64,000 bases of DNA from NCBI RefSeq assembly GCF_964204865.1, contig NC_135255.1, forward strand, positions 6,262,001-6,326,000. Direction: 5' to 3'. Origin of the DNA: Styela clava (lineage: Eukaryota). Positions 9,001 to 33,000 of this stretch are shown here, one piece after another (position 1 is the first letter of the stretch; every line of letters starts with the position of its first letter). The position numbers were made by a program.

Positions 9001-12000
9001 AATTTGCAATATTTATCCTTTTCCTTAATCCGATTTTGGATGCACTGTGATGTTCATGTTATTATTATTCTTTACATATTTCAAATACCGCATTTATTAT
9101 ATTATCATCAAGCGATATCGAATAATAAAAAAAACATTTTGACAGTAATATTGTGTTGGGGCTTCAAAAGTTTGCAGTTAGACCACCACGCACGTCAGAG
9201 CTAGAGCTGGGTGTCTTGAAACAATGATCCTGTACGTCGAAACGGAGAGGTTTAGACATTCGGAAACGCGTATTATGACGTCATATAGAATGCTAACGGA
9301 AATCGTCAAGGTATCACCTTTTGAACCAATGAAAAATACATCATTTTTGTCGAAATTATTGCAGATGTGTATGGCTTCGCTGGTTGAGAACATTCCGTGG
9401 CATGGGATAGAGTAGCAAACAATAATATCGGTCAGAGACTGAAGACTACCTTGTGTCTCATCACTAATTAATTAATAACCCGCTAATTATACGACATAAT
9501 TCATCCAAAATCAATAGGCTTCTGGTCCGACATATGATGAATGCACATGCAAAATTTGGAGCAGATTAAACCTCGCTTTCGTGAGATACCGCGTGCATCT
9601 AACAGACAAACAGACCTATCAATACCTATCAACATACTTACCGATTAAAATTGATAAGTAATAAGACCAACAACTACATGAGATTCTATGCTAGTAACAT
9701 TGATCCACTTACATAGTAACGTGATAATAATTTGTCACAGCTTGACCTTAAATATCTGTTAGTTCCATCCATCTAAACTCCCTGAAAAAGAGTCTCACTG
9801 CAGACCATACAGCTAGAAAATTGAGATCTGACTAAACAGGCAAACGCGTAGAAGTTTTTGAAGGAAGTGCTAATTTGAGACCGCGTGACATAATTAATCA
9901 GGGGAAAGTGGCTACCTTCTTCTAACGTTTTTCTAATTGTTCACCAGTTTTCTTTCATTTACATGTACAAACTTGAACTGTTTACGTATTTTTCTCGTGC
10001 TATTTGTTCACTGTTTTGTCGTCAACTAAAACCGTTCGGAAAAAAATAACCTGCACGAGGTGCGTTGTATTATCATTTCATATTCTCGAATTAGCTTCAA
10101 GTGCTTTCTTTTTCGTGGATTTAATCCTTGGAAATATCTGATATTTTACAATGAACTCGATAATGGTGCCATGTTTTACTGTTTGTGACAAACTTGTAGG
10201 AATTGTGTTTCGTTTTGATTCGGAGATAAAATTTCGTTTCGATTTTGAAACACCAAATAGAAATTTATTTTAAAAATTCCGCGTAATTTTCTTTCAGCTA
10301 TATATTAACTTCTCTCGCGAAAAACAATCATGAAAAAAAGCTCGTAGTCTACTCAGGTTCGCTTACAAATCCTTTCGAACTCCTTTCGCATTTTCTCGGT
10401 TGCATTGTATGCAGATTGATTCGAACCATTCGAAAAAACGAAAAAAATGAAAACTATATAATCAGACACACGCCGATAATCAGAACTATACCATTTATGG
10501 TTAGAAAAAGTGATTTTTTACGCTATCGCCAACAATTTTGCAAATATATATGTACGCTACGTATTCTTTTCAAACTAATTTCTAATTAGATTTTTTTTCT
10601 GATATAAGATAATACCAGCATGTTTGTTCCATTATGTTTTACATCACTATTTGCATGATCGCTGGCAGATAGAGTTACCACAAAAATAAAAAATAAATTT
10701 TCACCTAATATAAAGAAACGAGGAAGATCAATATATACGACGTTTACACGAGTACGTGAATATTTATTCGTGTTTAGCTGTCTATGTGCTGTACCACGAG
10801 CCACGTAATAGTAATCATAATGTCTCAACGAGCGCAATCATATAATGTAATTTATCTTCGATAAATGTTTTGAAAGAGTTGTAAAAAGCCTAATTTGAAT
10901 CATTCATAAATTTAAAAATGAAATAATGCAGTTGGCAAGCAGAATCGTATGAATAGTGTTATTATTTCTTTGCCAAGTATGCGCATTGCCTGAGGCCTAG
11001 TTAGGTACATGCGTCGTCCTTTCTGCCTTACGTTAGATGCCGGAATACTTCTAACGTAAACCGGTTGTAACGCTTGTACATGTGAACGATTAGACGTAAA
11101 CAATGAATTCAGATTATTGGCAGTTCAGATGTCTTATATCGCTCCTTGTCAGGTTATTAGGTATTTAATAAGTAAAGCATCCATGATTGCTAAATTATCA
11201 GAAATTCTTCATGCTAATAAGCATATTATCCGAGGAGCGATTGCCGGAATACTCTTTGGATTCGTGTATAACTACGGTCGAATGGGATGTCTGATAGGAC
11301 GGAATGCGTTAGAAGAGCTGTATAAAACGTAAGTAAAATATTATGCAATGGTATATATATATATATATATAGATAGGAAATGACTGGGCCCTTTCACATG
11401 ATTCGTTAGCAGTTATTACCACAGACAACATTGTCAAGAAACTGATGACAAGGGTACGCTTCCATTTATCATAATTTGCACCAATATTTCACCACGGTAT
11501 ATAGGCTATACTTTATATATATATTTGGTAAAAGTTTTCCTAAATTCTTTTTAAAGTCCTGTTTTGTGATAATGATTGAATTGAACATTTTTTTACCTTT
11601 TTTGCAAATTCAAGAATCGTCATTTAGCTTTGGAACTGTAATCAAAATAATTATACAATGCCACCAGCACCTGCAAAGCCTTGGTAAACTGTTTTTACTT
11701 GAACGACCTCTAGCTATATATATATATAATATCGGAAAGTATTTGAACATTGAGGAAAGGTTCTTCTATACTCAGGATTTCGCTTTCTCAATTACAAAAG
11801 CGCAAAGAATAAAATAGCTTACATGCGTGTTTGCTCTTACAATATAAAATTAAAGATGTACCGATACTACTTTTATCGCCGATATGATTACGATCCGATA
11901 GCAACAAAAAATGGCGAAACCGATATGCTGATATTTCAAAAAGCCAATATTCCGATACGAATATTTCGATAATATATAATTTTCATTCTGACTGCAGGGA

Positions 12001-30000: not shown

Positions 30001-33000
30001 ATTGGGTAGACTATATCTCTGAATCTACAATGAAAGGAAGACCTAATTATTGTTTATTAATAGTAAAAAAAAAAATTTTATTCAATATTTTCTTTAAATC
30101 CATATTTAGGCTAAAAATTGAACTCGCATTAGCATACATTATCCGATTGTATATTTTTTTTATACAATTGTTATTTAATTATTTCCCTAATCGCTTTTTA
30201 TTACAAACATTCGAATCTAAATTGTATCATCCTTTTTATAGGATTGCTGTGATTTTCGTTATCGGGTTGGCAACTTCGAAAATACAACAAGAATTTTTAG
30301 AAAAAGAAAATAAATTATACGGAGACATCGTTCAAGGAGACATAAAAGATACATATCGAAATTTACCTTTAAAGGTAAAGTAGTTTATCTTCTATATACA
30401 TCTGCGACCCCTCAGGGGAAAATTGCGTGGCCTGCGGAGACGTGCCAATTTTGAATATTGTGCGGCCCGAAACGAGTTTTCAACTTAATTTGGCGATAGC
30501 CGATACCTGAGTCCAATTTCTTATCTATGCCTATGACGTCACAATGCCTCAACAGCTACCTTGTGCAAACAACGCATGTCATAAAATCAGTAACCAAAGT
30601 ATATTTGTGCCTGAAACTACTAGAAAGCCTATGTTAAATAAAGGTGCGGCCCGAGTTTTTACCCAGCTATTTGTATCTGGCCCTCCTGTATTAAAGGTTG
30701 CACACCCCTGGCATACACAATCAACTCCCATGACCACTGCTCTGATAAGATAGTGGTTTCTAATCTATTACTAACTGTCATCTGAGAAATACGGTCCCAG
30801 CCTTCGCTGCATGCATTATTTTTGTTTGTTTTCATTAAAAAAAAAATAATTCTGTTTATAATCGACTCGTTTTAATCTGAAGTATTTTTTAATATTTTTT
30901 TTCAAGGTACTTTCCGGTTACCAGTATATTGTTGAACATTTTGGTAACGCCAGCGAATACTACGTTTCTACGGACGATGATTGTTTTATCAACATTCCAA
31001 ATACATACGAGTATTTTACCGATCTTGATCCGGCTAAAAGAAATGCTGCTCATTGTGGATACATTTATTCTGCTCGGTCGTCTCGTATATCGTAAGTATA
31101 ATATATATAACCTGGTGCTGGATTAATTTCAAACAGAGATCTTAGTCATAGTTGTTATTAGGACACATTAGAATCTGCTTCGATTCTAAAAGATACATAA
31201 ATGTATACCTAGATCGGTAAAGTTTTAGGAGTAAGAAAGTAAATAATTGACTTGTTGTTTGTATGGTTGTTGTATGATGAACGACAGCTTATCGTCTGTC
31301 GTTAAACGACGAACAGCAACAAACAACAACAAGTCGATACATTACTTTTCTTACACCTAAAATTGGTGAACCCGACGTGTTTGTAAGAGTTTTCGGTTTT
31401 TTCACTGCAGCTAAGCTTGGCATTTTGTAACGTTAACCAGTTCGTTAAAAATTGTCTTTCATTTTTTCCATATTATGCAGTCTACTTACATACTTACATT
31501 TGAAAATTCACAGAGACCTTTTTTGCTAATTTTCCATCTGAACCATGCACGAAATAATTTTATATGTATACTTGTTTTTAGAAATCCAAGATCAAAATGG
31601 GGCGTGGCCGAAGAGTTCTATCCAATGACGCCATATCCGAAATTCTGTCACGGAGGAATGACAATTTTATCTCATGATATTTTACGTGATATTTACCGCG
31701 TGTCATTAATCACAAATTATACCGGATTTCACCTTGAGGACGTCTTGACGAATGGAATATTGAGAGAAAAGTTAAACCGTGGGGACGAAAGCATCAGACA
31801 AATAGTTCTTCGAGATAAAAAGACAAATAAAAGAAAGCCGTTGATGTGGCATTTGGGGTATAAAAAAGACAAAGAAGAATCATTTGATGGAATATGGCGA
31901 GGTATTAAACGAATGTTGGGTTTCTATGATGGACCTTACGATCCAGTAAGAGGATATAGGGCTGAGTTGTCTTCCAATCTTCCGACACTTGAGGGGCAAA
32001 CTCTACAAGAAACGATTGAATTCTTTGGTCCTGTCGTTAACCGCAAAGGTAAGGCAAGCAGGTGATAAGAAGAACATTGAAAGCTATATGTTTCGGATCA
32101 TTTGCACTGTGTTGCTACCGCATTTGTTTTTAATTTGTGCCGAGTCCTTACTTTTATCCTTCCTATTTAATGTACATTTTATTAGAGGTTTAGTTGAATA
32201 CATTTCAAGAAAGTTCCGATTTATTCGTCGTTCAATCTTGATTAATCAACTCTACTTTCCCAGGGAAACCGCGTAAGCCCCATTCTCTTCTGTACCGCAT
32301 GGAATAATTGCAGTTTACTCTGGATTATACATTTGTGTATTCAGCGTTCACATTCACACACGTTGTTTGAATTCACTGTACTATTAATTTTTGAAATTGT
32401 AATACTTGATTTATTTTATTGATTTCACTTTATACATCATTATTTGAAATTGATATTTATTTTAGCATGTATTTAATAATCAATAGTTGCTTCGACAAAT
32501 TTAATTAAACTTTAATCAAGATAACATTTCAATTATTGCGCTTTTATTGATTCTGCTTAATAAAAATTCATTTAAAGTTTTGTCTGTTAAAAAAACTTTT
32601 TACGAGAACTCGCATGAAACAATGGGTGATCACTGACTAAAGCAACAGACTAAAAGACCCACAAACTAAATTGATTCATGGTGGTTCATTACGCGCCAGC
32701 CTACTGTCGCGAGTCTCAAAAAAAGTGCTGGTTCTTTTCATTAAAGCGTAGAAAATCAGCTTCAAGGAAGTAATCCTGTACAGGTAAAGTTCTAGTAAAA
32801 AAAAATCGAGTGTGATGACTTGTGATGAAAGTTCAGTAGTTTCAAATTTGGAAACATCGAGAAACACTCGTTTGACAATATTACTAAACGCAAGGCAAGA
32901 ATCACGTGGGGCGCCATTATTCGAAAGTAGTAGACTCTCGGATGCAACAATGGACCTCAATTTACAACATGAAATTTTACACAAATAAAACCAGTAACAT

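What the first reader, a model, noticed from the sequence alone, without database searches (positions are those of the whole stretch)
11129..32065. GT31 paralogue pair: one intact enzyme and one open-frame pseudoenzyme
Seen: two 6-exon GT31 genes with identical intron phases and equal lengths for exons 2 (87 nt) and 4 (133 nt), so a local duplication now separated by XRRA1. Copy B keeps STDDD, DTYRNLPLK, FCHGG and EDV. Copy A has NMDST, QNDKQKSIL, HCESN and PDV at the same positions, yet keeps a full frame, splice sites, TM anchor and structural Cys despite heavy divergence. Established: the GT-A DxD binds Mn/UDP-sugar, the xED motif supplies the catalytic base, and GT31 has a precedent for an inactive partner (Cosmc/C1GALT1C1 for T-synthase). 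Inference: A may be a retained non-catalytic chaperone, heteromer subunit or glycan-binding regulator of B.
Basis: partly seen in the sequence, partly recalled or inferred. Interest (0 to 1): 0.72.

Follow-up and report, generated by a model that had tools for sequence, protein, structure and literature searches.

The report
Dead galactosyltransferase copy beside live one
A sea-squirt chromosome carries a normal-looking sugar-transferring enzyme gene next to an old relative that is still an open gene but has lost most of its catalytic residues; this is a known kind of event in this enzyme family, and the dead copy's job is unknown.

Summary
The window is Styela clava (ascidian), not human. Both gene models hold exactly as described: six exons each, intron phases 2,2,2,0,2, exon 2 = 87 nt, exon 4 = 133 nt, all GT..AG, open frames of 419 aa (A) and 435 aa (B). 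A is identical to the RefSeq protein LOC120331207. B has no protein record in the sets searched.

B keeps 10 of the 11 human B3GalT5 donor, metal, base and lid residues examined. A keeps 3 of the 11, so A is almost certainly not a canonical transferase. A is still a Pfam Galactosyl_T member and models as a GT-A fold.

A is not a recent copy of B. It forms a clade (100/94) with two unnamed proteins that share its losses and its own derived motifs. An AU test rejects A as B's sister (p = 0.001).

Evidence on retention is mixed. The old dead clade and a rate only about 2.3 times B's argue for long-term constraint. Against that, A differs at 16 of 419 residues between two assemblies, which matches a crude neutral expectation of 15.9; the XRRA1-like neighbour differs at 8 of 725.

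Binding to B is untested. This is a new member of a known kind (inactive GT31 proteins such as Cosmc and CHPF), of moderate interest.

The parts
11129..11328 (+). Copy A exon 1 (ATG; weak hydrophobic segment, residues 38-56)
13603..13689 (+). Copy A exon 2 (87 nt, stem region, IPEMFL motif)
14076..14222 (+). Copy A exon 3 (motif I, RLTWG kept); skipped in frame in isoform X2
15080..15212 (+). Copy A exon 4 (133 nt; YGDILQ kept; QNDKQKSIL in place of DxYxNLxxK)
15988..16175 (+). Copy A exon 5 (MDST in place of DxD); skipped with a frameshift in isoform X3
16693..17197 (+). Copy A exon 6 (HCESN, PDV, WGILREK, C-terminal tail ending YRWNRL; stop codon included)
19545..21722 (-). XRRA1-like LRR protein, single exon, 725 aa plus stop, between A and B
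24025..24155 (-). Inverted 132-nt copy (81% identity) of B's intron 2 / exon 3 junction; a fragment only
28018..28283 (+). Copy B exon 1 (ATG; strong signal-anchor, hydropathy 2.33)
28378..28464 (+). Copy B exon 2 (87 nt, LPEKYL motif)
29684..29836 (+). Copy B exon 3 (motif I, IRQTWG)
30242..30374 (+). Copy B exon 4 (133 nt; DTYRNLPLK)
30907..31091 (+). Copy B exon 5 (TDDD, the DxD motif)
31582..32065 (+). Copy B exon 6 (KW lid, FCHGG, LEDV, WHLG; stop codon included)

Best explanation
Copy B is a canonical type II GT31 (B3GALT-like) beta-1,3-glycosyltransferase and is probably active.

Copy A is an intact-frame, annotated and probably transcribed GT-A-fold protein of the same ascidian GT31 clade. 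It can no longer bind UDP-sugar and Mn2+ in the canonical way. It belongs to an older 'A-type' lineage that lost those residues before it diversified and that gained motifs of its own: S for the family Gly in the FCxG motif, WG(I/V)LREK, an aromatic residue where the Mn-binding His sits, and a C-terminal (R/K)WxR(L/V) helix.

Most likely A persists as a non-catalytic protein that uses the remaining fold and tail to bind something (a glycan, or another glycosyltransferase), under weak constraint.

Shown: the gene models, the residue losses, the fold model and the clade. Inferred: transcription, loss of activity, any binding role, and location in the secretory pathway.
For: Models and identity to XP_039254211.2.

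Family and fold: Pfam Galactosyl_T at 56.8 bits against a cut-off of 23. AF2 model with pLDDT 82.7 and pTM 0.81. Best Foldseek match is B3GalT5 8zwp at TMt 0.81, then B3GNT2.

Residue roles come from passages of PMC11969544, mapped through. A has Q181 (Asp126), D183 (Tyr128), L189 (Lys134), N210 (Lys154), T214 (Asp158), N258 (Trp198), P303 (Glu242) and F346 (His285, inferred equivalence). A keeps D212, S213 and D304. B keeps all of these except Lys154 (Ser).

Census of 122 other single-domain relatives: D at 214 in 108, K at 189 in 114, G at 276 in 113, D/E at 303 in 114.

P0008 and P0088 share the losses and the derived P257, S276, W308 and tail motif. The clade has support 100/94 and 99/95.

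Path length from the common node is 2.95 for A against 1.27 for B exon 6.

Both assemblies have an open frame with no indel. Three RefSeq isoforms are recorded.
Against: A's amino-acid differences between the two assemblies (16 of 419) match a neutral expectation of 15.9 at the published 1.72% heterozygosity. The ratio is 1.01, against 0.29 for the XRRA1-like gene 2.3 kb away.

Two of the degenerate motif positions are themselves polymorphic (K184N, T214N).

Avoidance of conserved positions is not significant: 0 of 44 against 10 of 180, p = 0.22.

One recorded isoform is frame-shifted (X3).

The signal-anchor is weak, so secretory-pathway residence is not assured.

The two A-type relatives are unnamed and could be paralogues rather than orthologues. 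A profile search found no further members.

The AF2 model is driven by the family alignment and says little about A's own stability.

No expression data were seen directly.
Confidence: 0.55

Rival explanations
1. A is a decaying gene. It lost activity long ago, is now under little or no selection in S. clava, and its open frame and transcripts are a transient state before pseudogenisation.
For: The polymorphism ratio is about 1.0 against the genome-wide neutral level, and 3.5 times the XRRA1-like neighbour (Fisher p = 0.004). Former catalytic positions are polymorphic. Exon-skipping isoforms exist, one of them out of frame. The hydrophobic anchor is weak.
Against: Three A-type sequences at about 30% mutual identity all keep open frames and shared derived motifs. 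A has accumulated only about 2.3 times B's substitutions since their common node. There is no stop or indel between the two assemblies, although about 1.1 stop-creating changes alone would be expected under neutrality; this last point is weak on its own.
Confidence: 0.27
2. One reading: A is a chaperone or non-catalytic subunit of the neighbouring enzyme B, in the manner of Cosmc with T-synthase or CHPF with CHSY.
For: A and B lie 10.8 kb apart on the same strand. There is precedent inside GT31: C1GALT1C1, CHPF and CHPF2 are listed as inactive, with DxD deleted or modified (PMC8022947 passages). CHSY3-CHPF heterodimer entries appeared among the fold matches. A and B share a clade-specific C-terminal helix.
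Against: A is not B's sister (AU p = 0.00125), so the pairing is not a fresh duplicate-and-degenerate event. No binding test was possible. B has no protein record in the sets searched, so its own expression is unknown. A's anchor is weak.
Confidence: 0.15
3. A is still an enzyme with an unorthodox mechanism, either metal-independent or acting on another substrate.
For: The general-base Asp (D304), the first Asp of DxD (D212) and motif I are kept. A very basic loop, KRPRRKPR, sits where the donor-phosphate loop lies. From recall: some GT-A enzymes replace the metal with basic residues.
Against: Both uracil-binding residues, the general-acid Tyr, both metal ligands and the lid Trp are gone. The paper states that mutating key residues abolished B3GalT5 activity; its Figure S12 was not seen. 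P0008 has also lost D212 and D304.
Confidence: 0.08

Closest known systems
Human beta-1,3-galactosyltransferase 5 (B3GalT5, PDB 8zwp) and the B3GALT/B3GNT branch of CAZy GT31 (Pfam PF01762)
   Same: It is the best sequence match in the PDB for A (E 3.5e-7) and for B exons 4 and 6, and the best fold match for the A model (TMt 0.81). B has the same DxD, xED, uracil-binding and lid residues.
   Different: A lacks 8 of the 11 functional residues examined. A and B carry a roughly 100-residue C-terminal tail beyond the Pfam domain (Pfam match ends at A residue 316). Both lack the Cys146-equivalent disulfide cysteine.
Cosmc (C1GALT1C1), the inactive GT31 chaperone of T-synthase
   Same: It is a GT31 paralogue without a working DxD that is kept as a protein (PMC8022947 passages).
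   Different: Cosmc belongs to the C1GALT branch. A belongs to the B3GALT-like branch: C1GalT1 7q4i is only rank 37 among fold matches and is not among A's PDB sequence hits. This is an independent origin. No chaperone activity, ER location or client is shown for A.
CHPF/CHPF2, inactive partners of chondroitin synthases (CHSY3-CHPF heterodimers 9o4g, 9q8z)
   Same: The DxD is modified and the protein is kept as the non-catalytic half of a heterodimer with an active paralogue (entries listed).
   Different: These are two-domain proteins of a different GT31 branch. The fold match to A is weak (TMq 0.33-0.35). Heterodimerisation of A is untested.
Ascidian B-type GT31 genes: Clavelina LOC143470021 and LOC143470769, Ciona F7AGH4, Phallusia CAB3224883.1
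   Same: They fall in the same 10- to 11-row clade as A and B. B's exons match them at 40-62% identity. The two Clavelina genes have consecutive accession numbers on one contig, so they are probably tandem too (inference).
   Different: All of these keep DDD, FCHGG, EDV and the His. Only the A-type trio has lost them.

Membership tests
GT31 / Pfam Galactosyl_T (PF01762) | Profile match above the curated cut-off | tested here: met
   A (P0001) scores 56.8 bits against a cut-off of 23. B exon 4 scores 42.1 and exon 6 scores 28.4; exon 5 is below the cut-off at 17.5. B was tested exon by exon only.
GT31 / Pfam Galactosyl_T (PF01762) | GT-A fold | tested here: met
   A: AF2 pLDDT 82.7 and pTM 0.81; Foldseek best matches B3GalT5 and B3GNT2 at E 6e-17 to 1e-13. 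The model depends on the family alignment. B was not folded because its exons were not joined.
GT31 / Pfam Galactosyl_T (PF01762) | Motif I, RxxWG | tested here: met
   A has RLTWG and B has IRQTWG.
Active metal-dependent GT31 transferase | DxD motif (Asp156 and Asp158 of B3GalT5; Asp158 binds Mn2+) | tested here: not met
   A has D-S-T, and D-S-N in the other assembly. B has D-D-D, so B meets this feature. 108 of 122 relatives have D at the third position.
Active metal-dependent GT31 transferase | Second Mn2+ ligand (His285 of B3GalT5) | tested here: not met
   A has F346, where B-type proteins have the His of (W/F)HLG. The equivalence to His285 is inferred from spacing and was not aligned directly.
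Active metal-dependent GT31 transferase | Uracil contacts (Asp126, Lys134) and general-acid Tyr128 | tested here: not met
   A has Q181, L189 and D183. B has D, K and Y. K is present in 114 of 122 relatives and Y or F in 108 of 122.
Active metal-dependent GT31 transferase | xED motif: Glu242 (donor sugar) and Asp243 (general base) | tested here: inconclusive
   A has P303-D304: the Glu is lost and the base is kept. B has E-D.
Cosmc-type chaperone (C1GALT1C1) | Membership of the C1GALT branch of GT31 | tested here: not met
   A's only PDB sequence hit is B3GalT5. C1GalT1 is rank 37 by fold.
Cosmc-type chaperone (C1GALT1C1) | Binds and folds a specific active paralogue | not testable with these tools
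   B could not be given as one chain and no complex job was run.
Pseudogene (unprocessed) | Frameshift, premature stop or lost splice site | tested here: not met
   There are none in the window, and none in the older assembly's 419-aa protein.
Pseudogene (unprocessed) | Neutral evolution (dN/dS about 1) | tested here: inconclusive
   Only a proxy was available: amino-acid differences against the genome-wide heterozygosity give a ratio of 1.01 (0.57-1.63). The long-term rate is only about 2.3 times B's.

The most novel reading that the evidence does not exclude
The A-type proteins are a long-lived ascidian lineage of catalytically dead B3GALT-like proteins. They would act as obligate non-catalytic subunits or chaperones of neighbouring active GT31 enzymes, which would be an independent, Cosmc-like or CHPF-like system arising in a different branch of GT31.
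Probability: 0.15. Interest if true: 0.7.

Novelty: new member of a known kind. Interest (0 to 1): 0.45.

Why it matters
GT31 already has two textbook inactive members, Cosmc and CHPF, and both turned out to be essential partners of active enzymes. A further, independently derived dead lineage in the B3GALT-like branch would offer a natural experiment: which parts of a GT-A fold are kept once catalysis is gone, and does 'dead paralogue as partner' recur?

If A is only a slowly decaying gene, it is still a useful caution. An open frame, good splice sites and a RefSeq protein record do not show function.

For genome annotation there is a practical point. The copy that looks active (B) has no protein record in the sets searched, while the dead copy does.

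Tried and rejected
1. Pfam on A exon by exon was nearly blind; only exon 4 matched, at E 0.002 and below the cut-off. The database record of the whole protein was needed.

2. A third homologue search with a profile of the three A-type proteins returned only A, its isoform and P0088. It did not re-find P0008, so it has low power and says little about how widespread the lineage is.

3. The ESM Atlas search with A residues 235-419 gave only generic Galactosyl_T clusters.

4. dN/dS between A and B was not attempted. At 27-38% amino-acid identity the synonymous sites are saturated.

5. The test of whether A's 16 polymorphic sites avoid conserved positions gave 0 of 44 against 10 of 180, p = 0.22, not significant.

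6. I looked for a poly-A tract after the intronless XRRA1-like ORF as a retrogene sign. None was seen in the 345 nt past the stop, and the idea was dropped.

7. A recent Styela-only duplication of A from B is rejected (AU p = 0.00125). A-type plus B as one clade gives p = 0.0265, but that group was named after the tree was seen.

8. No complex prediction was run. B's exons were not joined and B has no database record. A paralogue as stand-in would not test the claim, so A:B binding stays unchecked.

9. B was not folded and not looked up as a whole protein, for the same reason.

10. Literature searches found nothing on this gene or lineage: GT31 + pseudoenzyme returned 0 papers; pseudo-glycosyltransferase returned 3 papers (2 bacterial enzyme studies, 1 with a single passing mention); pseudoenzyme + glycosyltransferase + DxD returned 1 unrelated plant paper; Styela clava + galactosyltransferase returned 2, neither on this gene so far as the listing and passages show.
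Full report
**Source and ground rules**

The window has no N. Exon 6 of copy A matches at 100% a RefSeq protein of Styela clava, and the intervening ORF is in the collection beside 'X-ray radiation resistance-associated protein 1-like [Styela clava]'. The contig is therefore an ascidian's, not human.

The spliced models were searched exon by exon, and the joined step was left out. 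Whole-length A was used only as the database record that a search returned (P0001). B has no such record, so B was never folded, looked up whole or put in a complex.

**The observation**

Three-frame displays give these models.

| Exon | A coordinates | A length (nt) | B coordinates | B length (nt) |
|---|---|---|---|---|
| 1 | 11129-11328 | 200 | 28018-28283 | 266 |
| 2 | 13603-13689 | 87 | 28378-28464 | 87 |
| 3 | 14076-14222 | 147 | 29684-29836 | 153 |
| 4 | 15080-15212 | 133 | 30242-30374 | 133 |
| 5 | 15988-16175 | 188 | 30907-31091 | 185 |
| 6 | 16693-17197 | 505 | 31582-32065 | 484 |
| Total | | 1260 (419 aa) | | 1308 (435 aa) |

- Intron phases are 2,2,2,0,2 in both genes, and all introns are GT..AG.
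- P0001 (XP_039254211.2, 419 aa) reproduces model A, split codons included.
- Exons 3-6 align between the copies at 27-38% identity, E 8e-13 to 3e-6.
- tblastn with A, with Styela paralogues and with six relatives finds no other GT31 exon in the 64 kb.
- The quoted motif pairs occupy the same columns.
- In exon 2 the equal length hides an internal offset: the IPEMFL/LPEKYL motif sits 4 codons deeper in B.

**What B is**

- B's exons hit Pfam Galactosyl_T: exon 4 at 1e-10, exon 6 at 2e-6, exon 5 weakly.
- Exons 4 and 6 best match human B3GalT5 in the PDB; exon 5 has no significant PDB match (best C1GalT1 7q4i, E 0.45).
- Residue roles come from the B3GalT5 paper, of which I read passages (PMC11969544). 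B keeps Asp126, Tyr128, Lys134, Asp156, Asp158, Trp198, Glu242 and Asp243, and has a His where His285 is expected. Lys154 is Ser, as in 11 of 122 relatives.
- B's signal-anchor is strong, with hydropathy 2.33.
- B's exons match Clavelina, Ciona and Phallusia proteins of one clade at 40-62% identity.
- B has no protein record. One search searched proteins of 281-2000 aa and found nothing above 41% identity. None of the 181 proteins fetched matches a B exon above 62.5%. Records shorter than 281 aa were not searched.

**What A is**

- A passes the Pfam cut-off at 56.8 bits.
- A models as a GT-A fold, with pLDDT 82.7 and pTM 0.81, on a 125-row alignment.
- A's best fold matches are B3GalT5 (TMt 0.81) and then B3GNT2.
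- A keeps motif I, YGDILQ, C240, C274, D212, S213, D304-V305 and G309.
- A has replaced eight functional residues:

| B3GalT5 residue | Role | A residue |
|---|---|---|
| Asp126 | uracil contact | Q181 |
| Tyr128 | general acid, donor sugar | D183 |
| Lys134 | uracil contact | L189 |
| Lys154 | donor sugar | N210 |
| Asp158 | Mn2+ | T214 |
| Trp198 | acceptor lid | N258 |
| Glu242 | donor sugar | P303 |
| His285 | Mn2+ (equivalence inferred) | F346 |

The census used the 150 best relatives of A from a scan of 1.84 billion representatives, which returned 997 hits at E <= 0.001. I kept 122 single-domain proteins of 170-560 aa and dropped 27 longer ones. Of those 122:
- 108 have D at position 214;
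- 114 have K at 189;
- 113 have G at 276;
- 114 have D or E at 303.

The paper states that mutating key residues abolished activity. Its Figure S12 is in a supplement that I could not see. A is therefore very unlikely to be a canonical transferase.

**An A-type lineage**

The best non-self hit, P0008 (306 aa, 33% identity, E 6e-42), aligns through A's C-terminal tail. It has lost even more: it retains 0 of the 8 key residues scored. P0088 is a 178-aa fragment of the same kind.

The three proteins share derived states:
- Pro at 257;
- Ser at 276;
- Trp at 308;
- an aromatic residue at 346;
- WG(I/V)LREK;
- a C-terminal helix ending (R/K)WxR(L/V).

They form a clade with support 100/94 in a 65-row tree and 99/95 in a 25-row tree. 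That clade lies inside a 10- to 11-row clade (99/96; 93/94) that also holds the B-type proteins. Long branches are involved, but the shared motifs are independent of the tree.

Both relatives are unnamed (Logan only), and I did not try to trace them. They may be orthologues or paralogues. P0008's 306-aa frame is unbroken on a 1126-nt contig, which suggests a spliced transcript (inference).

A profile search found no further members, but it also missed P0008.

**A and B are not a fresh duplicate pair**

B exon 6 groups with the Phallusia protein (97/90). The A-type clade groups with other, unnamed canonical proteins (93/83). Holding A and B exon 6 together is rejected (p-AU 0.00125). Holding the A-type clade with B exon 6 gives p = 0.0265, but that group was named after the tree was seen.

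Only exon 6 of B could be placed, so this rests on about 39% of the alignment columns.

Two Clavelina clade members carry consecutive accession numbers on one contig. A tandem arrangement may therefore be old (inference).

**Is A retained?**

For retention:
- The dead lineage diversified while keeping open frames and its own motifs.
- From the common node, A's path is 2.95 substitutions per site against 1.27 for B exon 6. That is about 2.3 times faster, much less than a lifetime of neutrality should give (inference).
- The older assembly's isoform X1 is also 419 aa, with no indel or stop.

Against retention:
- That isoform differs from the window at 16 of 419 residues, while the XRRA1-like neighbour differs at 8 of 725 (Fisher p = 0.004).
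- At the published 1.72% heterozygosity (PMC7540406, passage), 15.9 amino-acid-changing differences are expected under neutrality. The ratio is 1.01 (0.57-1.63) for A and 0.29 for XRRA1.
- This is a crude proxy, not dN/dS.
- Two degenerate motif positions are themselves polymorphic (K184N, T214N).
- None of 44 positions where A keeps the family consensus is polymorphic, but this is not significant (p = 0.22).
- Isoform X2 skips exon 3 in frame. Isoform X3 skips exon 5 and shifts the frame.
- That several isoforms imply RNA evidence is my recollection of how the RefSeq pipeline works. No call shows it.

**Mechanism and comparison**

The best reading is a catalytically dead GT-A protein kept under weak constraint, with a binding or scaffolding role (confidence 0.55). 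Plain decay is the main rival (0.27). Unorthodox catalysis is unlikely (0.08).

GT31 already has inactive members: C1GALT1C1 with its DxD deleted, and CHPF and CHPF2 with the DxD modified (PMC8022947, passages; its Supplemental Figure 1 was not seen). A sits in the B3GALT-like branch, so it is an independent instance of that kind.

A's weak anchor (1.31 against 1.68-2.59) leaves even its compartment open.

**Verdict**

The dead-enzyme reading is sound, the retained-regulator reading is open, and the recent-duplicate premise is wrong. This is a new member of a known kind, with interest 0.45.

Noticed in passing
window 28018-32065: The copy that looks catalytically intact (B) has no protein record. 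A search of 281-2000-aa proteins found nothing above 41% identity, and none of the 181 fetched proteins matches a B exon above 62.5%. The dead copy A has a RefSeq record with three isoforms. Records under 281 aa were not searched.
   Followed up: partly
window 7824-8864 (+): A 346-aa stop-to-stop ORF with a hydrophobic N-terminal segment matches Pfam Glyco_transf_29 (sialyltransferase, E 8e-26). It ends 2.3 kb upstream of A, so three glycosyltransferase-family genes lie within 25 kb.
   Followed up: partly
window 24025-24155 (-): An inverted 132-nt copy (81% identity) of B's intron 2 / exon 3 junction, including the first 22 nt of exon 3. No other B-like exon is nearby. It may be a relic of a partial duplication or a small repeat.
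   Followed up: partly
window 19545-21788 (-): The XRRA1-like LRR protein is encoded by a single uninterrupted 725-aa ORF. From recall, vertebrate XRRA1 genes have many exons. No poly-A tract was seen after the stop.
   Followed up: partly
window 1-393 (-): An open-ended ORF matching the ubiquitin-conjugating enzyme domain (UQ_con, E 4e-16) runs off the window's start.
   Followed up: no
P0020, P0079, P0042 (Ciona intestinalis XP_018671248.1, Ciona savignyi H2ZHF1, one unlooked-up protein): A second subgroup of the same ascidian GT31 radiation has N-D-N or L-D-N in place of DDD, while keeping the Lys, the Gly (two of three) and EDV (not covered in the fragment P0079). DxD erosion is therefore recurrent here.
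   Followed up: partly
P0009, P0010 (Ptychodera flava XP_070542326.1, XP_070547541.1): These hemichordate proteins of 2123 and 2159 aa have seven separate matches to A's Galactosyl_T region. They are either tandem-domain giants or fused gene models.
   Followed up: no
window 47261-47677 (-): A 138-aa ORF with a Cys/His-rich C-terminal stretch has no Pfam match. From recall it looks like the tail of a retrotransposon ORF.
   Followed up: no
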